DNA of 64,000 bases from a phage. Numbering within the stretch: the first letter of the stretch is position 1; every line of letters starts with the position of its first letter. This document shows, piece by piece, positions 1,774 through 23,257 of this stretch. The translations under genes and the position numbers were made by a program. The notes under the pieces were generated by a model. It did not search any database. It worked only from the letters and a program-made list of their open reading frames with translations, and was not told the DNA's origin. Location of the stretch: the NCBI GenBank assembly GCA_026066175.1, contig GCA_026066175.1_4721.2; one strand, given 5' to 3'.

Positions 1774-1922
1774 TGAAAGTATCCTTTACAGATTTAACTT
1801 ATATAAGTCGGTCGATAGACCATAGCGTACACGCGTGCATGCGCCACTATAGTATCAGTAAACACTTACCGTTATTGAGGTTGTGATACAACACTAAAAA
1901 TGCCGCATAACTTTTCCCTACG

Positions 1923-5635: not shown

Positions 5636-5710
5636 CGTATTTACCTTTTTATGTTAGGTGGGTTGCGGATGGAAGAATCAATGCATAGTCTGATTTAAGT
5701 TTGTTAAGAC

Positions 5711-6544
5711 TTACTTAGCTTTCGGATTATACGGACTAACATGTTGTTGCATTCGTTGGATTGTTTCGTAGTACGGGTTATAATGAGTGAACATATTGTT
5801 GTATGGATGGTAGCCGTAAAGCGCATTTTGCCTTGCCGGTGAGAAACCTTTTTGAGAAGGACGATTTGAATTTACTGCGAGCACGTAGTAAACCAAATTT
5901 TGATGGTCGAATGTTCCTTCGTTTTTGAAGGTGTCAGCATAGGCGCTTACCGCAGGAGCAAGTCTATCACCATCGGTTGTAATGATCGTACCATCCGGGT
6001 AAACTTCTCGAACGATACACCATGTTCCGATGAGAACATCTTCGGGTGTCTTATTACTGTATCCGACTGTAACGGTAAGGTAAGTATCGAATCCTCCTGA
6101 GCGCTGCGGATGTCGATAAATTGGGCCAGTCGTTTCTGCTTTATCGGTTACGGTTTTTTCGTAAGGACACTTCTTGATTGCTTTGATGTAAATATCGGGA
6201 ATCTCTAATACCGCCTTATCAGGATGAATTCTAAAATGATTCTTGAGTAAGCCCAAAAGGTTGGTTGCTACCACGTCGTGAGGTAGTACCCAATAACTGG
6301 TAGGGGAGTCATCGCCGTCTCTCTTGGAGAAGATGACTGCCTTGTTATCGTCGTCTGGTAGACTGAAGAAAACGATTGACTCAATAGGCATAGCCAGCTC
6401 ACCACAACAGGGGTCAGCGGATAACACCCAATTGTATTTGTTGTCCGTTTCGTATAAATGTTCTGTTCTGTCGATACTACGATCCTTCAATTGGATGTAG
6501 CGTTCACGTTGTTTCTTGGTTAATTTACGGTAGATAGTGGTCAT
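5711..6544 (-). CDS. hypothetical protein, paralog family of 5711/6630/7431 genes (277 aa)
   Basis: N-terminus MTTIYRKL; shares VREVYPDGTIITT and PIYRHP...YLTVT segments with the 6630 gene product. Confidence 0.75.
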   Translation of the reverse strand: MTTIYRKLTKKQRERYIQLKDRSIDRTEHLYETDNKYNWVLSADPCCGELAMPIESIVFFSLPDDDNKAVIFSKRDGDDSPTSYWVLPHDVVATNLLGLLKNHFRIHPDKAVLEIPDIYIKAIKKCPYEKTVTDKAETTGPIYRHPQRSGGFDTYLTVTVGYSNKTPEDVLIGTWCIVREVYPDGTIITTDGDRLAPAVSAYADTFKNEGTFDHQNLVYYVLAVNSNRPSQKGFSPARQNALYGYHPYNNMFTHYNPYYETIQRMQQHVSPYNPKAK

Positions 6545-6588
6545 GTTAAGCTCCTTGATTACGGTAAGGATGATTTCGGTTTTGTGAT

Positions 6589-6617
6589 GATGGTAGGACC
6601 ACTTTGTTTAGGATCCT
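6589..6617 (-). terminator. imperfect hairpin GGTAGGACC...GGATCCTACC between paralog genes
   Basis: 7-9 bp stem in the intergenic gap. Confidence 0.3.
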
Positions 6618-6629
6618 ACCAGTACGGGA

Positions 6630-7403
6630 TTATTCATGATCAGTGTAGAAATGGTGAGGATAGCCGGAGTACGATCCTGCGTTACCGGCTATGGATTCTT
6701 TCTGGGAATCGACGACGAGCGCGTAGAACTGTCGGGAATTTGTTAACGTTGAGAAATAAGAGGAAAGGACTTTTTCGTTCAACGCATCGCACGGTAGACA
6801 GGTACGCCCACAGAACGTCGTAATACGGCCATCCGGATAGATCTCACGGATCATACGCCATTCACCGATATCAACCGGCGATGGCGCTGCTACACCACCT
6901 GTTATCGTTAAATAACGATCATACGTGGTATGACATTCTGGATGTACGTAAATTGGCTTATTGGCCTCAACTTCTTCAGGAGCATAGCGTCGACCGAGAA
7001 GTTCAATAACCTCCAGATAGATTGTAGGCAGATCGCAAAGAACCCCTTCCTCTTTACGTTTCTTCGTGATTCGAGGACGAACCTCATTGATAACGTAGGC
7101 GAGTTCATTCAGCGCTTCTTGCGCTGGTAGCACGAATAAACGGTCCGGTTTGTCGGACAAGTCTTCATTTACGTAAACGTAACAAACATCGTCTTTAGGC
7201 GCGTAGAAGAAGCGAGAGACCTTAAAGGTTTCCGTAGTACGATAACCGAGACGCGTTTGGTCCTGCACCAGAGAAAATATCCAGCGACGTCCTTCGTCCT
7301 GTTCAATGATATCATTGAACATCTTTGTTTGATCAGGAAGTTGATATTCTTCCTGTAATTTAGCAAGTGCTTCATTATCCAGTTTGGTGTAAACATCAGT
7401 CAT
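6630..7403 (-). CDS. hypothetical protein, paralog of 5711 gene product (257 aa)
   Basis: N-terminus MTDVYTKL; IREIYPDGRITT and PIYVHPECHTTYDRYLTITGG align to the paralog; Cys cluster CGRTCLPC. Confidence 0.75.
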   Translation of the reverse strand: MTDVYTKLDNEALAKLQEEYQLPDQTKMFNDIIEQDEGRRWIFSLVQDQTRLGYRTTETFKVSRFFYAPKDDVCYVYVNEDLSDKPDRLFVLPAQEALNELAYVINEVRPRITKKRKEEGVLCDLPTIYLEVIELLGRRYAPEEVEANKPIYVHPECHTTYDRYLTITGGVAAPSPVDIGEWRMIREIYPDGRITTFCGRTCLPCDALNEKVLSSYFSTLTNSRQFYALVVDSQKESIAGNAGSYSGYPHHFYTDHE

Positions 7404-7430
7404 GATAGTATCCTCGATTAGTAAGGTTGG

Positions 7431-7835
7431 CTAGTCTATCTTAAGCCAGATTGATGGTAAATGGAAATAGACACCGTCGTCTATTTGTTTTTGTGTTAAC
7501 GGGGTTGGAAGTTTAGTGATGATGTTGTCGATCGATTCCTCAATGTCACTTGTTAGAACGTCGATGTGGTAATAGCGAGCGATGCGTCCGTTACGTTCTA
7601 GCCAAAACAGACGAACGAAATCACTATTTTTATTAATCGCATTCATAAACACGATTTGATGAAGCAGGATCATTCTTGACGAGGGGTAATCGTCAGGACG
7701 CGGAGTCATCACCAGTTCCCAACGTTTCCGTCGCACGCCTTTTTTGAATTGACTCGTTACATTTGAACCACTTTTACCTAAGTTTATAACAAATTGCTTT
7801 AGACGATACGGTGTGTTTCTGTAAATATCGGTCAT
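7431..7835 (-). CDS. hypothetical protein, short member of the same family (134 aa)
   Basis: N-terminus MTDIYRNT; first gene after the TATATTAC repeat. Confidence 0.65.
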   Translation of the reverse strand: MTDIYRNTPYRLKQFVINLGKSGSNVTSQFKKGVRRKRWELVMTPRPDDYPSSRMILLHQIVFMNAINKNSDFVRLFWLERNGRIARYYHIDVLTSDIEESIDNIITKLPTPLTQKQIDDGVYFHLPSIWLKID

Positions 7836-7854
7836 TGATTATAGCTCCAGGTTA

Positions 7855-13172: not shown

Positions 13173-13224
13173 CGCAGATTCCTGTTTGAAAGATAAGATA
13201 TCACATGATGGTCGACAGCATAAA

Positions 13225-13244
13225 GCCCACCCCGAAGGGCGGGC
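13225..13244 (-). terminator. hairpin GCCCACCC-CGAA-GGGCGGGC
   Basis: 8-bp GC stem with one mismatch and tetraloop, downstream of the 1127-aa gene stop; followed on the minus strand by TTTATGCTG. Confidence 0.5.
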
Positions 13245-13260
13245 TGTTTATGCGTACGGA

Positions 13261-16200
13261 TTACTTGTAGGCACCGCAATGGGCTTTGATGAGGAAAAGC
13301 ACCGCTTGCATCGGTTTATTGAACTGTTGCCATAACGTTAATGCCGGATGGAACAGCCAATCTTCCAGGCCGAGAACAATACCGTAGTTAACGACATTAT
13401 TAACATCGTTCTCAACGTTGAGTTCGCTATCCAGGAATTTATCGATTGAACGCAGGGTCTGCATGGCGTTGTCAGCAATAAGCCAAGCTTCATGCGCTTC
13501 ACGAGCCGCACGCAGCACTGCCTCCAGTTCGCTGATAGTAGCTACCGGTAATTCCTCACTGGTGAGGTCGTCAGAAACCGTAAACTGGCGATTGATACCG
13601 GTGTAGATCCACTGCATCAGTTTCGCTGCTTCCTCGTTCGGGTTGTTACGCGTTGTCGCATAGGTCGCGCTCATCTTCACGATATGCGTTTCACCAAGAT
13701 ACGCTTTGGACCCAACGCCTTTACGATCGCTGTCTTTCCACGGTTGTACGGTAGCGACCATGAGCTTATCCCATTTCTGAATAGGAATACGCTTCAGACC
13801 AACAACCGATCCGGCCGATGTTTCGGACTGGTTGCTCTTCCGCACTTCGCTGAGCTCGCGATCGATAGCAACGATTAATTCACGCGTCATGTTACCAAGC
13901 ATTTTGATTTCACCCAACGCAGCGATGAGCTTCTTCACATCGGTAATAGGTTCACCACCGATGGTAAGATGACGGATGAAACGTTTCAGAATAATCCGTT
14001 CTGCTGCTGGGTTACCACGACGCGCTTTAGCCAACGCTTGCTGTGTTTCGGCGAACAGCTTATCCCATGGAGCCGTAGCGGCGGTATAGTAACGGTGGTT
14101 GGTTTCAATCCAGTTACCGATACGGTTGACCGCACTCTTAACGGTATCCATGAACCCTTCCATCGCAATTTCGGTGGCTTCGACGTTACCCTGGAAGTTA
14201 TCAGGACCGATCTCACGCGCCGCCACCAGAATACCTTCCACCGCACTCACCGCATGCCGACCGATAGCCAGATTTCGCTGCGCTTCTTCAGCACGCTCAA
14301 CGAATTCTACAACCGCAGGATCGTCAACGATTTCCGCCTCAGCAACAACACGAGTACCAGCATCGCCTTCCAGTGTCTCGATGGTGACAACCGGATCGTT
14401 TTCACCAGCAACATCCTGGTACTCTTCCTGTTTGAGATCGCCGTTATCAGCCGCTGCGACAGCGGTGAGTATACGGACGGTAACATCACCGAGTTCTTTC
14501 GCAGCGAATCCGTAGACGGTACATGCTGTTGTCGCAAAGTTCATCAGTGTGCGCGTGCGTTTAACGATGTAACCAACATCGTAATCGTTGCCGCTCTTAT
14601 CGATGTCGCGGATTAACCGTTCAGCTGTCTCCTGAAGCTGTGTAGCTGCTTTCAGAAGGTCTTCGTTAAACAGTTTCGTTGACGCATCGATCAGCATATC
14701 AACACTAACGTTAGACGGTACGGCATCATCCTGCTGTTTCATGGCGCTAAGTTCGTCACGGAACTTACGAATACCGTCTAAAGCGGCGTCGGCGCTATGT
14801 CCGAACGCGGCCACGCCAGACATTGTTGTTGCTGTCAGCATGTCCGTATCAGCGTTTGGACTTTCGCCTTCTTTAAGATCCTTCAGCTGGTCGAAGAACT
14901 TACGGGATGCTTCAGCGATACGTTTGCTGTCTTTGACTGCGTTTACGATTTTATCAACCGATTTAGCATCGTTCGCAAGCAGCGTATCGAGTTTGTTCCA
15001 TTCGACGTTGACTTTCTTTTCATCCGAAGTATTACTCGGCGGAGGAAGCAGTTTCATCACCGGTGCTGTGCGTTGTTCTTTGGTCAGCTTGTTGGCCTTC
15101 CCTTCGATTTTTTTCTTATTAACACCAAAGAGATTTTTCAAACGCGCCACGAGGGCTTTTAAGAACTTCGCGACCGCTTCGTAAACCGATTTCAGAATCT
15201 GTTTAAAGCGACCCGGCTGCTTTTCCCCGTCTTCCAGATTAAGATCGCTGTTCAGCGCGACATCAAGCTGTTTGTACGATTCCATGATGTATTCGTCTTT
15301 GATTTCAGGACGAATCTCGAAGCTTTCCATCGGACCTTCAGCCGGACGGAATTCCATTTTCAGTTCGCCTTGCAGAGTAGGGTCGACAATGGCGATCGCT
15401 TCACCCTGACCATCAGCGTTAAAGCGTTCAGCGTAACGAGTACGGCGAACAATAACACTCTTATCCCCATCAAGACGACGTACCACCATGGTGCCAGGAA
15501 TGTATGGTTGTTCTGTTTCAATGACGGTTACATCTGCCTCACCTTCGCCGAGAATAACCGATGCACGCTGTTCAACAACAGGAACATCTAATACGCCACG
15601 TGCTTCCAGCTCTTGATGAATTTCGAACGACTCTTGTTTCAGATCTTCATCTTCTTCGTTTTCGTCTTCATCACCGTCACCTTTGGTGTCTTCATTACCC
15701 TCGGTGGTTTTGGTGTCGGTAGCATCAGCGTCGGCGTCTGTGTTGGTAGGTTCTTCGGACGCGGGTTCGGTGGTGCTATCCTCGGTGGACGTTTCGTCGG
15801 CGTTATCGACGTCAACATCACCTTGCAGCTCCGTTTCTTGAGCAACGGCGTCGGCTTTCTGCTCACCAGTATTGCCGTCATTAGCGTCGACAACAGGTTG
15901 TTCGTCAGCGACGGTATCTTCAACCTTTTCTACTTTCTCCACAACACGTTTAATCACGGTGACTTTGATGGGTTCTTCCGTCGTTTTGGTTTCTGGCGTC
16001 GCCTCGGCTACCTCAGCTGCTGTTTCAGCAACAGGTTCTGCTTTTTCCGGTTCGACGACATTGCCTTTAACACCTTCGGTGGTTTCTGCAGGTTGCGTCG
16101 CCTGTTCGATTTGTGCCGGATTGGTTGGATCGATGGCGTTAGCCGCATCCTGAATCTTGTTCTTCAGGTTGTCACGGTCAGCGTTAACGGTCGGATCATT

Positions 16201-16644
16201 GGTCACTTTCGGTGCCGGTGTTTCGGTCGGTGCGTTTGCTGGATATGGGTTCTTCGGCTCTTCACCAGGTGCGGTCGGTACGGCGATCAGCACGAACGGC
16301 TGCACGTCGTTACCGTCTTCCATGGTAACGCCACCGTTGCTCGGTGTGAAACGAATTCGTAAACTACCATCGATAGGACGGGTCACAATAACAGCACGTA
16401 CGACATCCTCGCCGTTCTCATCCGTGCTACGAATTACGCGAACGGCATCATCAACAGTAGCCCCTTCCTCGAGCGTATCTGATTCGATCGTCGCTTCGAT
16501 GCTGTCTGGCCGTGCCGCTGTAGGTAATGCGATCACCTGCTCTTCTTTATCAGTAGAAAGCGTTGCTTTGACTTCGATCGGTGTATCGCCGCTTTCCAGG
16601 TTAAGATGCGACTTACGCATCAAATCAGCTAACGATTTTTTCAT
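13261..16644 (-). CDS. large protein (1127 aa) with about 200-aa acidic low-complexity linker
   Basis: ATG start; central E/D/T/A-rich segment (product residues about 140-340); globular flanks. Confidence 0.85.
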   Translation of the reverse strand: MKKSLADLMRKSHLNLESGDTPIEVKATLSTDKEEQVIALPTAARPDSIEATIESDTLEEGATVDDAVRVIRSTDENGEDVVRAVIVTRPIDGSLRIRFTPSNGGVTMEDGNDVQPFVLIAVPTAPGEEPKNPYPANAPTETPAPKVTNDPTVNADRDNLKNKIQDAANAIDPTNPAQIEQATQPAETTEGVKGNVVEPEKAEPVAETAAEVAEATPETKTTEEPIKVTVIKRVVEKVEKVEDTVADEQPVVDANDGNTGEQKADAVAQETELQGDVDVDNADETSTEDSTTEPASEEPTNTDADADATDTKTTEGNEDTKGDGDEDENEEDEDLKQESFEIHQELEARGVLDVPVVEQRASVILGEGEADVTVIETEQPYIPGTMVVRRLDGDKSVIVRRTRYAERFNADGQGEAIAIVDPTLQGELKMEFRPAEGPMESFEIRPEIKDEYIMESYKQLDVALNSDLNLEDGEKQPGRFKQILKSVYEAVAKFLKALVARLKNLFGVNKKKIEGKANKLTKEQRTAPVMKLLPPPSNTSDEKKVNVEWNKLDTLLANDAKSVDKIVNAVKDSKRIAEASRKFFDQLKDLKEGESPNADTDMLTATTMSGVAAFGHSADAALDGIRKFRDELSAMKQQDDAVPSNVSVDMLIDASTKLFNEDLLKAATQLQETAERLIRDIDKSGNDYDVGYIVKRTRTLMNFATTACTVYGFAAKELGDVTVRILTAVAAADNGDLKQEEYQDVAGENDPVVTIETLEGDAGTRVVAEAEIVDDPAVVEFVERAEEAQRNLAIGRHAVSAVEGILVAAREIGPDNFQGNVEATEIAMEGFMDTVKSAVNRIGNWIETNHRYYTAATAPWDKLFAETQQALAKARRGNPAAERIILKRFIRHLTIGGEPITDVKKLIAALGEIKMLGNMTRELIVAIDRELSEVRKSNQSETSAGSVVGLKRIPIQKWDKLMVATVQPWKDSDRKGVGSKAYLGETHIVKMSATYATTRNNPNEEAAKLMQWIYTGINRQFTVSDDLTSEELPVATISELEAVLRAAREAHEAWLIADNAMQTLRSIDKFLDSELNVENDVNNVVNYGIVLGLEDWLFHPALTLWQQFNKPMQAVLFLIKAHCGAYK

Positions 16645-16659
16645 AAAACGTTGTTCCTC

Positions 16660-17763
16660 TTAAAAGTAATATTTCAGCGCCTCGCGAGAGACGTCAAGCA
16701 TAGCCGCCGTTGAGTTCGTGAAGAACTCGGCATAGCCCACAAGCGGCACCTTGATCCACGCGGTATACGCTGTAAGGTATCGAGAAAGGGCTACCATAGC
16801 ATCATCAGAAGCTGTAATGGATAACTGACCTTGTTGACGATACACATCGTTCAGTTTTGCTTGCAGGTTCCCTGCGATCTCAAGTAATTCGTTGGCGTAC
16901 TTTTTACGATGGTACGTAATAAGCAGATCAACACCGGTATTTACCGATTCGAGTAAAACGCCAATCTGCTCCAACGACGGCATGGTTACAACCATATCAC
17001 GCTCAACAGACACGACGTCCTGAACTTCAAATCGTGCTGATTGAATCGCGAGAGATTGTTGGATTGCTCCAGAACCCGTTGCGGTAACCTGATCAAGTCG
17101 TAGCATCCGGTTACCTAACAACGTCGTGTTAACCAGCCGCGATTCATTCAACGCACTGTACACCTTGTTCAACAGCGTGTGTGCATCACGATTAATCACA
17201 TCGATTAATGCGGTATCCGTCTGTTTTAAGATGATGTCAAGCGCTCTGTCTAACGTGTTTGCGAACTGTTTGAAGTCATCACGGAACGACGTTGACAACA
17301 GGTATTCTGCGATCTTCAGGTTTTGTTTGTATAACGTGTTTCCGGTGGTGAAGTCGAACCCGAAACTGTTTCCATAACGCAAATGTGGTGCGAGCGTGGG
17401 TGAGGCTTCAAAACTTTGCGCGATGGGTTTATGTCCAACCGCTTTCGTGTATTGACGACGGATATTACTCAGCTCGATTTGCAACGCACGACTGCGGTCG
17501 ATATACCGTGCGATGAAAGCAGTGATATTCCGCAACGTTGTCCAAATCGCATCGATGATCGCTTTGATGATTTTCATCGCAAGCTGGTTGTATGATTCCA
17601 GGGTAAGGAGATCAGCGCTTTCTGTAGCATAACCGGTTGCCAGAGCGCCGCCCGCTTGCTGATAAATAAGCTGATGGATTTGTCGTTGTGTTGCCGTCTC
17701 AGGTAGAGGTAAGGTTTTTAACAAGCTTAAGGCTTGGATTTGTCCATCATTGGTCTGCAGCAT
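16660..17763 (-). CDS. hypothetical protein, member of 5-gene paralog family (about 368 aa)
   Basis: Listed start 17826 is GTG; ATG at 17763 has a GAGGAA SD. Family-like helical segment with conserved Trp (AIIDAIWTTLRNI). Confidence 0.7.
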   Translation of the reverse strand: MLQTNDGQIQALSLLKTLPLPETATQRQIHQLIYQQAGGALATGYATESADLLTLESYNQLAMKIIKAIIDAIWTTLRNITAFIARYIDRSRALQIELSNIRRQYTKAVGHKPIAQSFEASPTLAPHLRYGNSFGFDFTTGNTLYKQNLKIAEYLLSTSFRDDFKQFANTLDRALDIILKQTDTALIDVINRDAHTLLNKVYSALNESRLVNTTLLGNRMLRLDQVTATGSGAIQQSLAIQSARFEVQDVVSVERDMVVTMPSLEQIGVLLESVNTGVDLLITYHRKKYANELLEIAGNLQAKLNDVYRQQGQLSITASDDAMVALSRYLTAYTAWIKVPLVGYAEFFTNSTAAMLDVSREALKYYF

Positions 17764-19048
17764 TGCGGGTTTCCTCAAGTTCGAGATGTGCATCAAGGTA
17801 ATCGTTAAGACCATCGATGACGTCACAGACCGTTAACAGGAATCGAGCAAAAGCAACGGCCTGGAAGCCAACGACATTACGAGCAATGCTAACACGTTGC
17901 ACAATGGCGGTTGAAGCCGCTTGGTCATCGTAGATCTGATGCAACAAACGTTCGTAGGGCTGAATCCATTCATCTTGATCAGCGAGGCTTGCCTCAAGAC
18001 AACGTTTAAATTCCAATTGACGTAGCGTTGACCATAAGGTGCTTAATGCGCCGATGATGGCGTTGGTTCCATCAAGAACATCGTTCAAGGGCAGGAAACG
18101 GAATCCGTCCTTCGCTGACTGGAAAGGAATGGCTTCCCATACAACGCTAAACTGTGCGCCAGTATAATCATCGACGTTCAGTACTTTTAACTGCGAAGCG
18201 CCAACCGGTGCGTTTATGATGACGTCATTGGTTTCAGTGTTCTCCAACGGCTTTTCACACAACGCGTCGTTGATCGCCTTAAGGATGTTTTCCCAACATG
18301 CCTCATTTTCAGCCGCGATGTTATCTTTGTTCTCCAACACCGGTGCTTTTAATAACCGCATCAGTAACGGATCAAGCTGACGATGCCATGCCGCCAGTAT
18401 CCCGGTATTTGTCATGATGTTTTCTGCGGTCTGTTGTAAATCCGCAACGCTGCTTACCGCACCGCCTCTTGGATGGAGATATCGCCAGTTATACGGGAAG
18501 TTCTCCCAGAAGGCATTATCTTCGTTAACCGTATATGCAGGAAGATTTTTCAGTTTTACGGCTTTCTTCAGCAACGGTTTTACTTGACGCACAAAACGAC
18601 GATAACTGCGGTTGCAAATATCAATGGCGTAGCGATACAACTCGTTCATGTAAAGCCATAACGCTCGGGTTGCCTCTTTCGCGGTTTTGTCAAAACTTTC
18701 CATGTTAAGACTCATCCCACCTGAGGTTTCCTCTTCCATCCCATCGATGATCTGATTGGGATCCATTCCCATCCCAGCCGCTGCGGTTGAAGCGATATGT
18801 TTGATGGTATTAATATCACGTTCTTCAACTTCGGTCATGTTAGGGACAATATCTAACCGGAGTTTGTTTAATGTTTGAAGGTGTTGTTCACCTTCCTTCA
18901 TGACGGTGTTCGTTTCATCGAGTGAGCGAAGCTGATTTTCGATATTACCGACATCGAGGATGTTGCCAGCGACACCGAATGATTCTACAGGTTCATCATC
19001 TATCCCTTGAAACAACGCGGTCATGGGTTGTTGCAACACGTTTTCCAT
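17747..19048 (-). CDS. hypothetical protein, paralog family (433 aa)
   Basis: IKHIASTAAAGMGMDPNQ and ATRALWLYM segments align with the 19202 and 20504 gene products. Confidence 0.8.
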   Translation of the reverse strand: MENVLQQPMTALFQGIDDEPVESFGVAGNILDVGNIENQLRSLDETNTVMKEGEQHLQTLNKLRLDIVPNMTEVEERDINTIKHIASTAAAGMGMDPNQIIDGMEEETSGGMSLNMESFDKTAKEATRALWLYMNELYRYAIDICNRSYRRFVRQVKPLLKKAVKLKNLPAYTVNEDNAFWENFPYNWRYLHPRGGAVSSVADLQQTAENIMTNTGILAAWHRQLDPLLMRLLKAPVLENKDNIAAENEACWENILKAINDALCEKPLENTETNDVIINAPVGASQLKVLNVDDYTGAQFSVVWEAIPFQSAKDGFRFLPLNDVLDGTNAIIGALSTLWSTLRQLEFKRCLEASLADQDEWIQPYERLLHQIYDDQAASTAIVQRVSIARNVVGFQAVAFARFLLTVCDVIDGLNDYLDAHLELEETRNAADQ

Positions 19049-19105
19049 TTAGGACTCCTACGTAGGAAAGATCATGGTGGGTGATCATGTCCACCATTGT
19101 GCGCG

Positions 19106-19128
19106 GTATGGAGCGTGGCTCCATACCC
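19106..19128 (-). promoter_or_regulatory. perfect 10-bp hairpin GGTATGGAGC-GTG-GCTCCATACC in the 5-prime leader of the 17747-19048 gene
   Basis: Lies between the conserved palindromic hairpin and the start codon. Confidence 0.35.
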
Positions 19129-19162
19129 AAGTCAAAAGATAACCGGATATTAACGGCATATA

Positions 19163-19194
19163 CCCTCCTCCTTCCCTTCCGGGTTGGAGGAGGG
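19163..19194 (-). terminator. conserved palindromic hairpin (inverted orientation)
   Basis: CCCTCCTCCTTCCCTTCCGGGTTGGAGGAGGG, between the 19202 stop and the 19048 start. Confidence 0.55.
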
Positions 19195-19201
19195 ATTTAG
19201 C

Positions 19202-20494
19202 TTATTTTGCTTTCTCGGTTACCGCGTTGAAGTATTTCGCTGCAGCAAATACCGCCTCCGCATACTGACGGACAGAGGCACGGAGGATCTTGGTTCCTAA
19301 TACCGAGCTTAAACGAGCCATTTCTGTTACAGCCGCGATATAAGGACGTACGGTTTCACGATCGGCCTCAGGTAACTTGTCGAGCATTTCGCCCCACTTC
19401 GTTTTGATTTTCATTCCGTTGAGTTTAGCATCTCGTCCTACAGTGCTTGCCAAACTTTCAACTTTATGCAAATATGTCGGCTCCACCCTATGGAATGCCT
19501 TCAGATATGCCGTCAATGCGCTTTTCAGCTCATTCCCATCGTGGAAAATATTCACATTTTCGATATTATCTGTTACGGTGTCAACAACTTCGATATGAAC
19601 ATCCTTCACCAAAGCACATGCTTTAATGACATCTTTCTCTTTTTCTAACGCATCCAGCCCTTTAACGACATATTGTTTTCCGCCGCTTTCTGGAAGTCTG
19701 AACGCTCTCAGCGCAGCTTTAGTGGTCTGAAGATACTTATCTAGAACACTATCGAGCGTTGTTAAATCAGTTAGGACATTGATGTCGTAGTTGATGTCAC
19801 CGATCATAGTAAATAGGAAATCTGACGTCGCCGCACTTGCAGCTAATTGTTCGATATGTTTGCTAACGGATGTTGCATTAACCGATTTTGCGTTCGGGAA
19901 CATATTAACCATATTCCCGGTAGGCTTCTCTAGCTGCTTGATCTGACGTTCCCCTTTATTGACTTCGGATGCGATTTTGGTGATCTCAGCATAAGCCAGA
20001 ACGAGATTCTTGAAAAGCGTCTGGAGCAACTTAAACAATTGTTCAGCAATATTCGCGATGGTGACCCAGACCGCATACAGTGCTTGCGCTGCACGTTCCT
20101 TGAAGCCTTCCAGCACGATAGCTTGGCCTTCGACTAACTTATCATTAGCCTGGAACATGTCTTCATCAGACATACCCAGGTTAGCTGCCGATGTTGATGC
20201 GATTTGGCGGATAAGCGCAACGTCGCTGGCGCGGGCTTCTGTGATCGTTGATGCGATTACGTAGGCGGTATCTTCCAACGTTGCTGATGTCCGTACAGCG
20301 ATTTCAGCCAGTTCGCTGTTCTCGTCGATGCTGTCGTCGGTATGTCGAATCACCAACTCAACTTCATCTTCCTCAATTTCTGCGTTGGGGTCTTGTTGCT
20401 CGGGTGAAATCGATGCAAGAACATCTTCAGCGCTGAGTAGTGCGAGTTCAAAAGCGTTTTTATTGATGTTATCAAAAAGAGAAATACGGGCCAT
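19202..20494 (-). CDS. hypothetical protein, paralog family (430 aa)
   Basis: SDVALIRQIASTSAANLGM and VEGQAIVLEGFKERAAQALYAVW align with the 20504 gene product. Confidence 0.8.
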   Translation of the reverse strand: MARISLFDNINKNAFELALLSAEDVLASISPEQQDPNAEIEEDEVELVIRHTDDSIDENSELAEIAVRTSATLEDTAYVIASTITEARASDVALIRQIASTSAANLGMSDEDMFQANDKLVEGQAIVLEGFKERAAQALYAVWVTIANIAEQLFKLLQTLFKNLVLAYAEITKIASEVNKGERQIKQLEKPTGNMVNMFPNAKSVNATSVSKHIEQLAASAATSDFLFTMIGDINYDINVLTDLTTLDSVLDKYLQTTKAALRAFRLPESGGKQYVVKGLDALEKEKDVIKACALVKDVHIEVVDTVTDNIENVNIFHDGNELKSALTAYLKAFHRVEPTYLHKVESLASTVGRDAKLNGMKIKTKWGEMLDKLPEADRETVRPYIAAVTEMARLSSVLGTKILRASVRQYAEAVFAAAKYFNAVTEKAK

Positions 20495-20503
20495 GTGGGT
20501 TCC

Positions 20504-21823
20504 TTAACCTTTAGTATAGGCTTTAACGAGGGTGTTAATAAAAGAAGTTAATGCACGAAGGTACTGATAAGCGAATTGGTTTTCAATACGTTGCTCTTTA
20601 CTGCAGAGCATGATCGCCCGTTTCACCAGTTTGGGATATATTTCAACGTACGGTTTATAACTGTCGTCGTATTGCTGCGTATCGAATTTTTTCATGGCTT
20701 CATACTGCAGCTTTTCCATCTGACGAACACGAGCACGATCGAAGATCTTGGAGAACGCACGTCCGCGTTGGGTGATCGCAATCAGATCTTTCGCTAACGA
20801 AAGCGGTTTAACGCTACGGAAATCATCCGGTGTGGGTAGCGTGTAGTTTTCTGGATCGCTATCCCATTCGGTCGCTGCGTCTTCAACCACGACATCCAAT
20901 TTCAGATAATTTTCAATCGCGGCAAGAACGTTGTCTTTTGCCGCATTGAATTCTTTTAAGAACACAGCAGCATTAACATAACGAATACGTTTACCAGAAA
21001 CCGCCGGTGTAACCACATCACTCCCGTCAACGGAACCTCTGTTCTCCAATGCGGTTTTCAGTGTATCCAGAAACGACATGTAGTCCACAGGAAGTTGGTC
21101 AACACGATCTAAACGAAAATCGAATGTCTTCACACCAAGACCGGTGGTAAGGTCGTAACGTGCACCGCCTGCCATGATTCGGTTATAGTTCTCAAGGTTC
21201 TTCTTGATTTCGTCAACACCACCGACATGATTGCGATTGGAAAAGAGGATACGCCAACCGGCTTTGAACGGCACGGTAACCGTTTCTTCTTTACCTTTCG
21301 GAAGTTTTTCTAACGCTTTGATCGCATTCTGGAAATTGCGGGTTTCATCATAGATGATCCGCGTTAATCCTTCCAGGACAGCAGCCAGTTGCAGAACAAT
21401 ATCAACAATGATATCCCAGATCTTTTTCAACGCTCGAACGACGGTGTCTTTGAACCCTTCAACAACCAACGCTTCACCCACGGTGATGTTGTCAGTAGGA
21501 CGAAGCATTGCATCGGAAGGCAGACCTAAAGCGATTGAGGCGGATTCTTGAACGTTACGTACCAATGCAACGTCGCTGTAGTTAGCCGTCTCAATCGTTG
21601 GTGCAACATCAAAACTGATTTCTCGTAATGCTTCAACAGCAGGGAAAGCACGATCGAGCGCCTCTTCATGTTCATCGATGTTCGCTAAACGGAGTTCAAC
21701 CCCATCAGCGTCAATGACTTCGGTGGTAGGCTCTGCTGCAAGCGCCTCGGCAACGATGGGATCCTTCTCAAAAGCTTCAAGGCTAATATCGCCTTGTGTA
21801 GCAAATAGTGGTATACGTACCAT
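20504..21823 (-). CDS. hypothetical protein, paralog family (about 439 aa)
   Basis: Listed start 21847 is TTG; ATG at 21823 has a GGAGAC SD. Motifs SDVALVRNVQESASIALGL, VGEALVVEGFKDTVVRALKKIW. Confidence 0.8.
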   Translation of the reverse strand: MVRIPLFATQGDISLEAFEKDPIVAEALAAEPTTEVIDADGVELRLANIDEHEEALDRAFPAVEALREISFDVAPTIETANYSDVALVRNVQESASIALGLPSDAMLRPTDNITVGEALVVEGFKDTVVRALKKIWDIIVDIVLQLAAVLEGLTRIIYDETRNFQNAIKALEKLPKGKEETVTVPFKAGWRILFSNRNHVGGVDEIKKNLENYNRIMAGGARYDLTTGLGVKTFDFRLDRVDQLPVDYMSFLDTLKTALENRGSVDGSDVVTPAVSGKRIRYVNAAVFLKEFNAAKDNVLAAIENYLKLDVVVEDAATEWDSDPENYTLPTPDDFRSVKPLSLAKDLIAITQRGRAFSKIFDRARVRQMEKLQYEAMKKFDTQQYDDSYKPYVEIYPKLVKRAIMLCSKEQRIENQFAYQYLRALTSFINTLVKAYTKG

Positions 21824-21871
21824 GTGATGTCTCCAGTAATAATTCAAAAGATAAATCAGCGCAGCATAAGA

Positions 21872-21903
21872 CCCTCTCCCAACCCGGAAGGGAAGGGAGA
21901 GGG
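21872..21903 (-). terminator. conserved palindromic hairpin, variant CCCTCTCCC...GGGAGAGGG
   Basis: Between the 21926 stop and the 21823 start; preceded by GCATAAG as at 7913. Confidence 0.55.
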
Positions 21904-21925
21904 AATATGTCAGTTTACTAACTGA

Positions 21926-23257
21926 TTATTTCTGTGCTGCGTCAGCCGGTTTTTCAGCCGCCTGGCCGCTGTACTCTTTCAGCATTTTAGCAACGCCGTC
22001 CAGTACTGCGTTACCCGCCTGAACACCGTACTTCATCAGGCTAACCTGCGGGTTGATGTAGCAAGAACGTGCGTCTTTCAGTGCAGACAGCACAGTTTTA
22101 ACACGCTGTTTCTCTTGAGCAGAAACTTCGCCTTTCTTAGCCAGTTCAGCTTCCATATCGTCGCCGAATTTAACAGCGTCTTTGAAGCCCTGGGATTTCT
22201 TACCGATGTTACCTTTCGCAGCCAGCAGTTTATCGGCCAGCGCTTCAACGCTGTTGATCACCGCAGCCATCTGGTTCGGGGACAGTACATCGGCTTCCTG
22301 TTCCATCACGGTGATTGCGTTATTGCCGCGTTCCCAGGTCACTTTACCGTCGGTGGTTTTGAATCCCCAACCGTTCGGACCTTTCACATCAGCGATCGCA
22401 GGCGCGTTCAGTTTGTCGGTGTACTCAGTATGTGATTTAGACTTAACGAGTTCAACGAATTTATCCGCACGATCGTCAGCCGCCTTCATTGCTTTCTCGA
22501 AGGTATCTGCGATTTTGCTTGATGCACCAGCGATATCGATATCGCCAATATAACCGGTAACAGTGGTGCCCAGTTTAACTTTCGCGTTCTTCGGAGAGCC
22601 TTTACGTTTGGCGATCATTTCTTTCAGTTTAGCCGCACGTGCTTTCAGTTTGGTTGCACCGTCGAAGATACGATCGATGAACTTCACGAAGTTGTCCCAG
22701 GTGGATTTCAGGAAGTTCTTAATTGCAGTCCACAGTTTCTGCCACCATTTCTGTTCTTCCAGGAAGATCATGTTGGTTGCATCATAACGGGAAGCGGAAC
22801 CGCCGAAGCTTTCGAAGGAAGGCATGGTTTCCGGCAGTTTGAAGCCGATAGTACCACACAGACGTTTCAGATTACGCATGTGTTCTTGCGCGGTCTGTGC
22901 AGACATACCACCGTCTTTCAGATAGCTTTCGGTCGCAACAACGGTTTCCGTCATTTCGTCCATGGCTTCGTCCATGGCTTCAGCGGTTTCGTCGTCTTTT
23001 GCGATTTCGATAACAACAGCATCAACCTGCTCGATGTCACCACGGACTTCGATAGCCAGTTCGGTTTCAGCAGCGGTGTCTTCAGCGATTTCAGCACGTT
23101 CGGTCAGTTCAGCCACAACGGTTTCATCGCCTGCAGCAGCATCGGCTGCCGGTTCTGCTTCAACGGTTGCCGCAGCTTCCGGATCGATCTCAGCAGCCAG
23201 TTGAACCAGCTGTGCGTTAGATGGATTTGCGACAAGACGATCAAAAATAGAAGGCAT
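21926..23257 (-). CDS. hypothetical protein, distant member of the same paralog family (443 aa); probably abundant
   Basis: Strong optimal-codon bias; acidic N-terminal region; WQKLWTAIKNFL helix comparable to family members. Confidence 0.85.
   Translation of the reverse strand: MPSIFDRLVANPSNAQLVQLAAEIDPEAAATVEAEPAADAAAGDETVVAELTERAEIAEDTAAETELAIEVRGDIEQVDAVVIEIAKDDETAEAMDEAMDEMTETVVATESYLKDGGMSAQTAQEHMRNLKRLCGTIGFKLPETMPSFESFGGSASRYDATNMIFLEEQKWWQKLWTAIKNFLKSTWDNFVKFIDRIFDGATKLKARAAKLKEMIAKRKGSPKNAKVKLGTTVTGYIGDIDIAGASSKIADTFEKAMKAADDRADKFVELVKSKSHTEYTDKLNAPAIADVKGPNGWGFKTTDGKVTWERGNNAITVMEQEADVLSPNQMAAVINSVEALADKLLAAKGNIGKKSQGFKDAVKFGDDMEAELAKKGEVSAQEKQRVKTVLSALKDARSCYINPQVSLMKYGVQAGNAVLDGVAKMLKEYSGQAAEKPADAAQK

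What the first reader, a model, noticed from the sequence alone, without database searches (positions are those of the whole stretch)
13261..16644. 1127-aa protein with a long acidic low-complexity linker
Residues about 140-340 are dominated by E, D, T, A and P (for example ...TEDSTTEPASEEPTNTDADADATDTKTTEGNEDTKGDGDEDENEEDEDLK...), flanked by globular regions. Such acidic linkers occur in DNA-mimicking or packaged internal proteins of large phages.
Basis: partly seen in the sequence, partly recalled or inferred. Interest (0 to 1): 0.4.

Follow-up and report, generated by a model that had tools for sequence, protein, structure and literature searches.

The report
Jumbo-phage internal head protein, acidic tract
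This gene encodes a protein that a Goslar-like giant phage packs inside its head with the DNA; its long acidic stretch is a conserved trait of this known protein class, so the finding is real but largely explained.

Summary
ORF 13261-16644(-) encodes 1127 aa with a disordered polyanionic tract (res ~126-345, net charge -45; core 280-345 is 43% D+E), far beyond chance.

The window is a Goslar-like nucleus-forming jumbo phage, and the ORF is the 97%-identical orthologue of Goslar gp53. A 2026 preprint detects gp53 at ~330 copies per virion and calls it a PF12699 (phiKZ internal head protein) member. It is the last and largest gene of the inner-body operon, the positional counterpart of phiKZ gp97 and 201phi2-1 gp159. 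Those two carry even longer acidic tracts (481 and 592 aa) ahead of a PF12699 domain.

New here:
- The layout is leader (LNLE17|S), beta domain, acidic tract with invariant short motifs, second beta domain, hypervariable helical IP-fold module, then C-terminal PF12699 module.
- Published peptides show the N-domain and the tract are present in virions.
- The tract and the middle module are two independently recombining allele cassettes.
- A sister lineage carries 1-3 copies of a ~300-aa helical module in the middle position.

"Packaged internal protein" is supported. "DNA mimic" is not. The tract's function is still inferred. New member of a known kind; moderate interest.

The parts
13261..16644 (-). 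Whole gene: 1127-aa precursor of a gp97-type internal head (inner-body) protein; orthologue of Goslar gp53
   Evidence: ORF; 94.5% nt identity to Goslar_00053; 109 close and 10 distant homologues; Goslar gp53 found in virions at ~330 copies
16653..16660 (-). Shine-Dalgarno (AGAGGAAC), overlapping the stop codon of the upstream paralogue
   Evidence: Read directly from the sequence
16594..16644 (-). Residues 1-17, MKKSLADLMRKSHLNLE: putative N-terminal leader ending in a prohead-protease-type site (E17|S18)
   Evidence: L14, E17 and S18 are invariant across both lineages. Same pattern and position as phiKZ gp93 ...KLSLE13|S, a cleavage reported experimentally (PMC11297242), and as gp92/94/95/97 and 201phi2-1 gp159. 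Cleavage in this protein is inferred, not shown
16270..16593 (-). Residues 18-125: beta-rich N-domain; 99.5% mean identity among close homologues, dN ~0
   Evidence: AF2 strands 23-100 at low confidence; peptide 84-96 detected in Goslar virions
15808..16269 (-). Residues 126-279: disordered tract part A, with invariant motifs PGxExKNPxPANAPTE..APxVTNxPT (126-152), VTV (228-230) and VDANDGNTGExKA..ETELxG (252-275)
   Evidence: Invariant columns at 30% overall identity; dN/dS 0.05-0.08 even between deeply diverged alleles; peptides 182-193 and 202-220 detected in virions
15610..15807 (-). Residues 280-345: acidic low-complexity core (net -25), ending in the conserved LKQE338|S
   Evidence: Composition; 65% of alignment columns carry indels and length runs 51-71 aa in close homologues; dN/dS 0.2-0.44
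15295..15609 (-). Residues 346-450: second beta domain, possibly a duplicate of the N-domain, ending ...LKMEFRPAEGPME440|SFE
   Evidence: AF2 strands 358-400; hhalign N-domain vs this domain P=0.0027 over 84 collinear columns, which is weak; in the distant lineage this domain lies after the repeat modules
14410..15294 (-). Residues 451-745: hypervariable all-alpha middle module with an IP-type fold; recombining allele cassette (variable part ~485-735)
   Evidence: Identity falls to 47% while flanks stay >=94%; dS 1.76 vs 0.16-0.25 in the flanks; AF2 pLDDT 74, pTM 0.76; Foldseek hits are jumbo-phage internal/virion proteins; its start matches the start of the o388 PF12699 module, P=2e-5
14245..14409 (-). 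Residues 746-800: conserved acidic spacer (..AGE748|NDPVVTIETLEGD..)
   Evidence: 98.6% identity among close homologues; invariant G747, E748, D750, PVVT in the deep alignment
13264..14244 (-). Residues 801-1127: conserved C-terminal PF12699 (phiKZ_IP) module, starting at junction motif IAME829|GFMDTVK
   Evidence: PF12699 E=1.3e-5, 25.0 bits (cut-off 27), HMM 81-319; the 99%-identical 350-aa gene call P0121 carries a precomputed PF12699 label; stated as PF12699 for Goslar gp53
13219..13245 (-). Intrinsic-terminator-like hairpin AGCCCGCCC-TTCG-GGGTGGGCT followed by TTTAT; end of the internal-protein operon
   Evidence: Read directly from the sequence; a terminator is annotated at the same place in Goslar

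Best explanation
The ORF encodes the Goslar-type counterpart of phiKZ gp97 / 201phi2-1 gp159, the last and largest protein of the inner-body (PF12699 internal head protein) operon of nucleus-forming jumbo phages. Shown or strongly supported: it is made as one 1127-aa chain and packaged into the head at hundreds of copies. Peptides from its N-domain and from its acidic tract are present in mature virions. The chain consists of a leader, a beta domain, a disordered polyanionic tract, a second beta domain, a variable helical IP-fold module and a conserved PF12699 module. Inferred mechanism: (1) The highly conserved N-terminal leader, N-domain and the invariant short motifs inside the tract are the head-targeting or docking part, as the N-terminal parts of phiKZ gp93 and gp162 are. 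(2) The prohead protease trims the chain at some of the conserved E| sites (E17, E109, E338, E471, E748, E825/829). (3) The polyanionic disordered tract stays in the head. Being repelled by DNA, it keeps the protein cargo unstuck from the packed genome and extended enough to leave through the tail with the DNA. (4) The helical modules are the delivered cargo, and the middle one is the host-facing, exchangeable piece. My confidence is about 0.9 that it is a packaged gp97-type internal head protein and about 0.35 for the specific role proposed for the tract.
For: Identity and locus. Synteny with phiKZ gp87-101 and with a 259-kb distant phage contig. Virion association, ~330 copies, 63% coverage, PF12699 assignment. 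Peptides 84-96, 182-193 and 202-220 in virions. PF12699 for the C-terminal module; phiKZ gp97 C-terminus scores 32.8 bits and aligns to the same HMM region. Same architecture with 481- and 592-aa acidic tracts in phiKZ gp97 and 201phi2-1 gp159. Shared leader and junction motifs. gp93 E13|S14 cleavage and capsid-bound N-terminal fragments: PMC11297242. phiKZ gp97 is packaged, proteolysed and ejected. Disorder. Purifying selection on part A and invariant motifs. IP fold of the middle module.
Against: No experiment addresses this window's phage; everything experimental comes from Goslar or phiKZ. The PF12699 score is just under Pfam's cut-off (25.0 vs 27), and full-length scans give no hit. No cleavage of gp53 has been demonstrated. 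The peptide spanning AME|GF (809-834) was found uncleaved, and none of the predicted semi-tryptic peptides appeared in the stored part of the peptide table. Most conserved E| sites do not fit the phiKZ/SPN3US S/A/G-x-E rule at P3. No inner body was seen in Goslar cryo-EM. The phiKZ gp97 knockout is viable, so any role is dispensable or redundant. The proposed charge-repulsion role rests on physics and analogy only. The total tract charge, my arithmetic from ~330 copies, net -45 and the 237,307-bp genome, is about 1.5e4 per head, only ~3% of the DNA's.
Confidence: 0.6

Rival explanations
1. The acidic tract is part of a long assembly-only propeptide. It acts like a scaffold or targeting segment in the prohead, is then cut into pieces by the prohead protease, and is expelled before or during DNA packaging, as with the 111-254-aa propeptides of SPN3US head proteins.
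For: PF12699 proteins of SPN3US and phiKZ lose long N-terminal propeptides, which are cut at several sites. Conserved E| sites flank the tract at E109 and E338. The other paralogues in the array also have acidic N-terminal parts.
Against: Peptides from the N-domain (84-96) and the tract (182-193, 202-220) are present in purified Goslar virions. One tract peptide has an MS area of 7.9e4, against 2.9e5 for a C-terminal-half peptide. Total coverage is 63% of the full chain. Incomplete clearance of propeptides is known in SPN3US, so partial removal is not excluded.
Confidence: 0.2
2. The tract is a DNA mimic or decoy. After ejection with the genome it soaks up host DNA-binding defence or nucleoid proteins at the entry site.
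For: It is strongly polyanionic. It belongs to a class whose members are ejected with the DNA. The acidic core evolves fast and exists as diverged alleles, as expected for a host-facing part.
Against: The tract is predicted disordered, T/A/P-rich and without regular charge spacing. The DNA mimics I know of (Ocr, ArdA; from general knowledge, not checked here) are folded scaffolds. The full-length protein has no Pfam hit at all. The best-conserved parts of the tract are non-acidic motifs such as KNPYPANAPTE and VDANDGNTGE. The same kind of tract occurs in phages of unrelated hosts. The injected DNA of these phages is enclosed in a vesicle early on.
Confidence: 0.08
3. The tract is a functionless flexible spacer whose composition merely drifts. 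Only the flanking domains matter.
For: The acidic core tolerates many indels (65% of columns; length 51-71 aa) and has relaxed constraint, dN/dS 0.2-0.44. Tract length differs about threefold between genera. The phiKZ gp97 knockout is viable.
Against: Part A evolves at dN/dS 0.05-0.08 even where dS exceeds 1, and it holds more than 40 invariant positions at 30% overall identity. Acidity is retained in every lineage and in three genera despite sequence turnover. Composition this extreme is almost never reached in shuffles.
Confidence: 0.1

Closest known systems
Escherichia phage Goslar gp53 (Goslar_00053, QBO63846.1 / YP_009820738.1)
   Same: Orthologue: 94.5% nt and 97% aa identity, same position and strand context. 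Reported in virions at ~330 copies and as a PF12699 protein.
   Different: Small differences are concentrated in the acidic core and the middle module. The preprint does not mention the acidic tract, the domain layout, any processing of gp53 or its allelic mosaicism.
Pseudomonas phage phiKZ gp97 (and 201phi2-1 gp159)
   Same: Last and largest gene of the syntenic inner-body operon. Short N-terminal leader ending ...SLE|N or ...SME|N, a long E/D/T/A/V-rich tract, a PHI-x-L/M-E|S-F/Y junction, and a C-terminal PF12699 helical domain. gp97 is packaged, proteolysed, ejected with the DNA and stays with the phage nucleus.
   Different: No BLAST-level similarity. Their tracts are 2-3 times longer (481 and 592 aa; net -152 and -198) and start right after the leader. 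They lack the two beta domains and the extra middle helical module, and the invariant motifs of the Goslar-type tract were not seen in them.
PF12699 phiKZ-like internal head proteins in general (phiKZ gp92-96, gp162/163; SPN3US gp53/54; Goslar gp54-58)
   Same: Helix-rich fold, clustered paralogous genes, acidic N-terminal parts, high copy number in heads, and a junction motif before the first amphipathic helix.
   Different: Those are typically 370-550 aa with one module. This protein strings an IP-fold module and a PF12699 module behind a 450-aa N-terminal extension, and its sister lineage strings up to four helical modules.
T4 internal proteins (IPI/II/III) with capsid targeting sequence
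   Same: From general knowledge, not tested here: a short N-terminal leader ending in (L/I)-x-E that is cut by the prohead protease, cargo ejected with the DNA, and highly polymorphic cargo genes behind a conserved leader. The conserved-head, variable-cargo pattern resembles what is seen here.
   Different: No sequence or fold relationship. T4 IPs are small basic proteins without an acidic disordered tract.

Membership tests
PF12699 phiKZ-like internal head proteins | Match to the Pfam PF12699 model at or above the gathering score (27 bits) | tested here: inconclusive
   The full-length protein gives no hit. The C-terminal 326 aa alone give E=1.3e-5 and 25.0 bits over HMM 81-319. phiKZ gp97 behaves the same way: no hit full-length, 32.8 bits for the C-terminus alone. 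A 99%-identical 350-aa gene call carries a precomputed PF12699 label. Local profile-profile tests were underpowered, and even the positive controls failed.
PF12699 phiKZ-like internal head proteins | Encoded in the paralogous internal-protein array between the gp89-91 and gp98-101 equivalents | tested here: met
   Window order: o368, o299, o176 (PF25618 PhiKZ_gp91), o443 (PF12699, 70 bits), o447, o430, o433, o388, this ORF, then a head-tail joining protein. The order is the same in Goslar, in phiKZ and in a distant 259-kb contig.
PF12699 phiKZ-like internal head proteins | Present inside the virion head at high copy number | not testable with these tools
   Shown for the 97%-identical Goslar gp53: ~330 copies, 132 peptides, 63% coverage. 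Not shown for this phage.
PF12699 phiKZ-like internal head proteins | Helix-rich fold shared by the paralogues | tested here: met
   The middle module gives an AF2 all-alpha bundle (pLDDT 74, pTM 0.76). Its best Foldseek hits are jumbo-phage internal/virion proteins (best E 1.5e-4, probabilities 0.8-1.0). These include 201phi2-1 proteins whose lengths match gp156 (PF12699, 218 bits) and gp158. The C-terminal module is helical but modelled at low confidence.
PF12699 phiKZ-like internal head proteins | N-terminal propeptide removed by the prohead protease at S/A/G-x-E | tested here: inconclusive
   A conserved leader (LNLE17|S) and several conserved E| sites exist, but most have a non-S/A/G residue at P3. 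No semi-tryptic evidence was found in the stored part of Table S4, and the 809-834 peptide spans AME|GF uncleaved.
PF12699 phiKZ-like internal head proteins | Ejected into the host with the DNA | not testable with these tools
   Shown for phiKZ gp93/95/97 and Goslar gp58, not for gp53.
DNA-mimic anti-restriction proteins (Ocr / ArdA type) | Folded scaffold displaying carboxylates in a DNA-like array; recognisable family domain | tested here: not met
   The tract is predicted disordered. The full-length protein has no Pfam or PHROG hit.
Assembly-only propeptide / scaffold segment | Absent from mature virions | tested here: not met
   Peptides 84-96, 182-193 and 202-220 of Goslar gp53 are listed in the virion LC-MS/MS table. 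Their stoichiometry is unknown.
T4-type internal proteins with capsid targeting sequence | Short N-terminal leader ending in hydrophobic-x-E, cleaved by the prohead protease, sufficient for head targeting | tested here: inconclusive
   The leader pattern is present and invariant. Neither cleavage nor sufficiency for targeting can be tested here. There is no homology to T4 IPs.

The most novel reading that the evidence does not exclude
The gene is a modular cargo carrier for ejected proteins. A conserved head-targeting front end and a conserved PF12699 back end bracket two independently exchangeable cassettes: the acidic tract and an IP-fold helical module. In a sister lineage a helical module in the middle position has been multiplied to three copies. 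The deep, freely reassorting alleles would then be variation of the first phage proteins the host cell meets, driven by host systems that sense or block ejected inner-body proteins (Juk-like immunity), or by an anti-defence activity of the module itself.
Probability: 0.2. Interest if true: 0.7.

Novelty: new member of a known kind. Interest (0 to 1): 0.38.

Why it matters
The biological role of the abundant PF12699 inner-body proteins is described as a key unsolved question for chimalliviruses. This analysis does not solve it, but it sharpens it for the largest member of the family:
- A long polyanionic disordered tract behind a short leader is a conserved, selected feature of the last gene of the operon in three genera.
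- In Goslar, peptides from that tract are present in virions.
- The tract contains invariant short motifs that are obvious mutagenesis targets.
- The helical middle module behaves as an exchangeable allele cassette.

These points give concrete handles (motif mutants, tract deletion, allele swaps) for testing how internal proteins are targeted, kept apart from DNA, ejected, and perhaps recognised by host immunity.

Tried and rejected
- **Family and similarity searches:** Full-length Pfam and PHROG scans found nothing. tblastn against 50,697 phage records found only Goslar. BLAST against the window's own proteins found no paralogue.
- **Exhaustive profile search:** Searching 1.84 billion representatives with the family alignment found only 4 representatives, all within the family, so there is no wider reach.
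- **Local hhalign:** Comparing the C-terminal or middle modules with small alignments of bona fide PF12699 proteins was underpowered. Positive controls only reached P~0.05, so I did not use these results for or against membership, apart from the module-start match at P=2e-5. Query middle module vs the distant lineage's repeat module gave P=0.0027, collinear but weak.
- **Full-length structure:** The AF2 model was too poor (pLDDT 38) and its Foldseek search was uninformative.
- **Solved structures:** Foldseek of the middle module against the PDB gave nothing significant. Scattered alpha-pore-forming-toxin-like hits (E 0.4-2) were rejected as noise.
- **Cleavage evidence:** I searched the published peptide table for semi-tryptic peptides that would prove cleavage at candidate sites. 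None turned up, but only peptides starting with A to about EL are stored, so this is not decisive.
- **Tandem repeats as the cause of core indels:** Only one weak 21-nt, 2-copy repeat was found.
- **Promoter/terminator consensus scan:** Not enriched over shuffles. The terminator was read by eye instead.
- **Positive selection on the middle module:** Rejected, because dS is saturated there (1.76) and dN/dS is 0.33, so the divergence reflects old recombined alleles.
- **Primary proteolysis papers:** Those for phiKZ and 201phi2-1 are not held.
Full report
**1. The observation**

The ORF listing gives an ORF at 13261-16644 on the minus strand, 1127 aa, with an ATG start. An AGAGGA Shine-Dalgarno sequence lies 9 nt upstream and overlaps the stop codon of the preceding gene. 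A GC-rich hairpin, AGCCCGCCC-TTCG-GGGTGGGCT plus TTTAT, follows the stop codon.

Residues 126-345 carry a net charge of -45 (E 17%, T 13%, A 12%, D 11%). The core 280-345 has a net charge of -25 and 43% D+E, and residues 281-320 have no hydrophobic residue.

Among 5000 composition-preserving shuffles, 2 reach the D+E density, 1 reaches the charge, and none reaches the 55-residue run without hydrophobic residues. The protein is the most acidic of the 38 long ORFs in the window. The next most acidic are its neighbours in the same gene array.

AlphaFold2 with a 22-sequence alignment leaves ~101-333 without secondary structure, apart from a short helix at 154-170, at pLDDT 23-30. A charge-hydropathy plot places 126-345 on the disordered side and every other segment on the folded side.

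**2. Where the window comes from, and what is already published**

The gene is 94.5% identical in DNA to Goslar_00053 of Escherichia phage vB_EcoM_Goslar, a nucleus-forming jumbo phage, where it is annotated as hypothetical. The protein identity is 97%.

A bioRxiv preprint of April 2026 (10.64898/2026.04.21.720040) reports the Goslar virion structure and LC-MS/MS of purified virions:
- gp53 is present at ~330 copies per virion.
- It is said to contain a predicted PF12699 domain.
- Its gene lies in a region syntenic with phiKZ gp92-97.
- gp54-57 share the fold, and gp58 is the dominant member at ~2150 copies and is injected.
- No inner-body density was seen, and the role of these proteins is called unknown.

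The paper says nothing about the acidic tract, the domain layout or any processing of gp53. Its Table S4 lists gp53 with 63.2% coverage, 132 peptides and 659 PSMs.

**3. Gene context**

The ORF is the last of a same-strand array:
- o368, o299 and o176 (PF25618, PhiKZ_gp91).
- o443 (PF12699, 70 bits), o447 (26.8 bits), o430, o433 and o388 (19.4 bits).
- This ORF, then the terminator.

A 127-aa ORF, a 530-aa protein and a head-tail joining protein follow.

phiKZ has the same order: gp87(-), gp88(-), gp89, gp90, gp91, gp92-96, gp97, gp98-101. 201phi2-1 has gp155-158, gp159 and gp161-164. A 259-kb metagenomic contig that carries a 30%-identical homologue is arranged the same way. This protein is therefore the positional counterpart of phiKZ gp97 (816 aa) and 201phi2-1 gp159 (922 aa).

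**4. The acidic tract is a class feature**

phiKZ gp97 has an E/D/T/A/V/S tract at residues 7-487 with net charge -152 (whole protein -151). 201phi2-1 gp159 has one at 1-592 with net charge -198.

In both, the tract is followed by a junction such as PAME|DYGYGNLE|DYYKAMVTSLE|SFNSTIGKFVRNII and then a helical domain. For the gp97 C-terminus that domain scores 32.8 bits on PF12699.

The query has the same junction vocabulary (GPME|SFEI..YIME|SYKQ..LNLE|DGEK..FKQILKSVYEAVAKFL, and IAME|GFMDTVKSAVNRIGNW). So does every paralogue in the window and phiKZ gp92-96.

The extreme N-termini also agree:
- gp93 MSLLKMLDKLSLE13|S, a cleavage reported experimentally (PMC11297242).
- gp94 ..DSLE11|G, gp95 ..DSLE13|D and gp97 ..ASLE13|N.
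- 201phi2-1 gp159 ..FSME14|N.
- The query MKKSLADLMRKSHLNLE17|S, and its distant homologue ..ALKME17|S.

In the papers I could search, phiKZ gp97 is a high-copy inner-body protein with PF12699. It is proteolysed during packaging, ejected with the DNA and remains with the phage nucleus, and its knockout is viable.

**5. Family membership of the C-terminal module**

Whole-protein Pfam scans fail for the query, for its homologues and for phiKZ gp97 itself. The long biased tract is the likely reason.

Scanned alone, residues 802-1127 give PF12699 at E=1.3e-5 and 25.0 bits, just below the 27-bit cut-off, over HMM positions 81-319. The distant homologue's C-terminus gives 13.2 bits over the same HMM region. 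A 350-aa gene call that is 99% identical to the query's C-terminus carries a precomputed PF12699 label.

Together with synteny and the preprint's assignment, I accept membership, while noting that the formal score test is marginal.

**6. Architecture**

- Residues 1-17: leader.
- Residues 18-125: beta-rich N-domain.
- Residues 126-279: tract part A.
- Residues 280-345: acidic core.
- Residues 346-450: second beta domain.
- Residues 451-745: helical middle module.
- Residues 746-800: acidic spacer.
- Residues 801-1127: PF12699 module.

The two beta domains align collinearly over 84 columns at P=0.0027, a possible duplication with weak evidence.

Modelled alone with an allele-rich alignment, the middle module (the modelled segment spans residues 441-750) gives an all-alpha bundle at pLDDT 74 and pTM 0.76. 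Its Foldseek hits in BFVD are almost all virion or internal-head proteins of phiKZ-like jumbo phages: 201phi2-1, Psa21, PhiEaH1, RisingSun, RP12, PS119XW, Noxifer and pTD1. The best E-value is 1.5e-4, probabilities are 0.8-1.0, and the alignments run full length.

The two 201phi2-1 hits have the lengths of gp156 and gp158. gp156 scores 218 bits on PF12699. The first ~65 residues of the middle module match the start of the o388 PF12699 module at P=2e-5. I conclude that the middle module is probably a second, divergent IP-type module. There is no significant match among solved structures.

**7. Homologues and how the parts evolve**

The word-indexed search found 109 Goslar-like proteins (80-97% identity, 1109-1134 aa; two are partial sequences of 853 and 897 aa) and ten proteins at ~30% identity (1089-1670 aa). 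An exhaustive profile search of 1.84 billion representatives found nothing beyond these two groups.

The distant group keeps the leader, the N-domain, an acidic tract and the C-terminal module. It carries one, two or three tandem ~300-aa helical modules that are 27-37% identical to each other, and the second beta domain lies after the modules rather than before them. These modules occupy the position of the query's middle module, but their homology to it is only weakly supported (hhalign P=0.0027).

At 30% overall identity the tract still contains invariant motifs: P126-G-x-E-x-KNPxPANAPTE-xx-AP-x-VTN-x-PT152, V228-T-V230, and V252-DANDGNTGE-x-KA...ETEL-x-G275. L335-KQE338 is nearly invariant (at least 90% of sequences).

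Among the 107 full-length close homologues:

| Region | Mean identity | Notes |
|---|---|---|
| N-domain | 99.5% | no indels |
| Second beta domain | 97.8% | no indels |
| C-terminal module | 97.8% | no indels |
| Tract part A | 94% | few indels |
| Acidic core | 85% | indels in 65% of columns; length 51-71 aa |
| Middle module | 86% | identity as low as 47% |

Nei-Gojobori estimates on four fetched loci show the following:
- The divergent middle alleles are old. dS is 1.76 in the middle module against 0.16-0.25 in the flanks, with dN/dS 0.33.
- P0104 and P0107 share a middle allele (dS 0.018) yet have deeply diverged tract alleles. Part A has dS 1.14, dN 0.053 and dN/dS 0.05. The core has pS 0.78 and dN 0.36.

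Tract classes and middle-module classes occur in many combinations across the 108 sequences. The gene is therefore a mosaic with two independently recombining cassettes. Part A of the tract is strongly constrained, and the acidic core is constrained mainly in composition.

**8. Is the tract kept in the virion?**

The stored part of Table S4 covers peptides beginning with A to about EL. For gp53 it lists:
- AVIVTRPIDGSLR (84-96, N-domain).
- AAQPAETTEGVK (182-193, semi-tryptic, after ..IEQ).
- AEPVAETAAAAAEVTPETK (202-220, area 7.9e4).
- AATQLQETAER (664-674, area 2.9e5).
- AVAEAEIVDDPAVVEFVER (764-782).
- EIGPDNFQGNVEATEIAMEGFMDTVK (809-834, spanning the AME|GF junction uncleaved, low area).
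- EAHEAWLIADNAMQTLR (1047-1063).

So the N-domain and the tract are physically present in purified virions. Their stoichiometry and the state of the chain, whether intact or cut but retained, are unknown. None of the semi-tryptic peptides predicted for candidate sites appears in the stored fraction.

For calibration, the Goslar major capsid protein lacks density for its first 157 residues. Its sequence there reads ..GCE150|SEE153|LVQLS158, which is compatible with the S/A/G-x-E rule of phiKZ and SPN3US.

The sites in this protein conserved across both lineages are E17, E54, E109 ([T/S/A]-M-E|D), E338 (KQE|S/G), E471, E748 ([A/S]-G-E), E825 (A-x-E) and E829 ([A/V]-M-E|G). Only some fit the S/A/G-x-E rule.

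**9. Mechanism**

Shown, or taken from the literature:
- The protein is a packaged gp97-type internal head protein.
- The tract is disordered, polyanionic, conserved as a feature and present in virions.
- Part A carries constrained motifs.
- The middle module has a helical IP-type fold and is exchangeable.

Inferred:
- The leader, the N-domain and the motifs target or dock the precursor in the prohead. This is by analogy with phiKZ gp93 and gp162, whose N-terminal pieces stay bound to the inner capsid wall after cleavage.
- The prohead protease trims at some of the conserved E| sites.
- The polyanionic tract is repelled by DNA. It keeps the protein cargo separate from the genome and extended for exit through the tail.
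- The helical modules are the delivered cargo.

By my own arithmetic, the total tract charge is ~330 x 45, about 1.5e4 per head, or roughly 3% of the charge of a 237-kb genome. A bulk counter-charge role is therefore unlikely, and a local anti-sticking role is more plausible.

Rivals are the assembly-only propeptide (weakened by the virion peptides), the DNA mimic (no structural or family support) and the neutral spacer (contradicted by dN/dS of 0.05-0.08 and the invariant motifs).

**10. Verdict**

The class assignment is already in the literature for the near-identical Goslar protein, so the core finding is explained.

What is new is descriptive:
- The equivalence to gp97/gp159.
- The leader and junction motifs.
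- The constrained motifs inside the tract.
- Evidence of retention in virions, extracted from published data.
- The two-cassette mosaic.
- Module copy-number variation in a sister lineage.

Novelty: new member of a known kind. Interest: moderate, about 0.38.

Noticed in passing
window 14410-15294 (residues 451-745; most variable ~485-735): The helical middle module is a hypervariable allele cassette. Identity falls to 47% between proteins that are otherwise >=97% identical. dS is saturated there (1.76) against 0.16-0.25 in the flanks. Tract alleles and middle alleles reassort freely among ~108 related sequences.
   Followed up: yes
P0110-P0119; locus L002 10001-14128: A sister lineage (30% identity, 259-kb contig) carries 1, 2 or 3 tandem ~300-aa helical modules in the position of the query's single middle module. 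Its second beta domain lies after the modules rather than before them, so there is copy-number variation and domain reordering within one orthologous gene. Homology of these modules to the query's middle module is only weakly supported.
   Followed up: yes
window 5695-7854: A ~2.2-kb insertion relative to Goslar, where only ~140 bp holding the 62-aa gp47 lie. It sits downstream of the gp48 homologue and carries 3-4 minus-strand ORFs (277, 257, 134 and 112 aa) with no Pfam hit. Related contigs differ at this spot too, so it looks like a variable hot spot.
   Followed up: partly
window 15613-16362 (+ strand): A 249-aa antisense ORF overlaps the acidic tract. Its F/V/G-rich low-complexity translation is the mirror image of the GA-rich coding strand. 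Purifying selection acts in the minus-strand frame, so it is almost certainly not a gene.
   Followed up: partly
Goslar gp53 residues 182-193 (window equivalent ~16066-16101): The published virion peptide AAQPAETTEGVK is semi-tryptic: its N-terminus follows ..AQIEQ, not K/R or E. It could be an in-virion cut inside the tract after Gln, or an MS artefact.
   Followed up: no
window 16660-23257 (o388, o433, o430, o447, o443): The other array members also have acidic N-terminal parts and the same PHI-x-L/M-E|S/G-F/Y junction before their first amphipathic helix. o433, o430 and o447 are detectable paralogues of one another by BLAST (E 1e-6 to 1e-18). o388 in the ORF listing starts at a GTG 20 codons upstream of the ATG annotated in Goslar.
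   Followed up: partly
model m499b7a943abf (residues 441-750): Among non-significant PDB hits (E 0.3-2), alpha-pore-forming toxins (ClyA, AhlB, SmhB, YaxA/PaxB, MakA, Cry6Aa) and IpaD recur, along with one phiKZ capsid chain (8y6v_G, prob 0.63). This is tempting given the membrane-bound early-infection vesicle, but the scores do not support any claim.
   Followed up: no
window 1-1776 (- strand, runs off the window start): The major capsid protein gene begins near 1773 and runs off the 5' end of the window. In Goslar its propeptide contains FLSME|SAS and GCE150|SEE153, which helps calibrate the prohead-protease specificity.
   Followed up: partly
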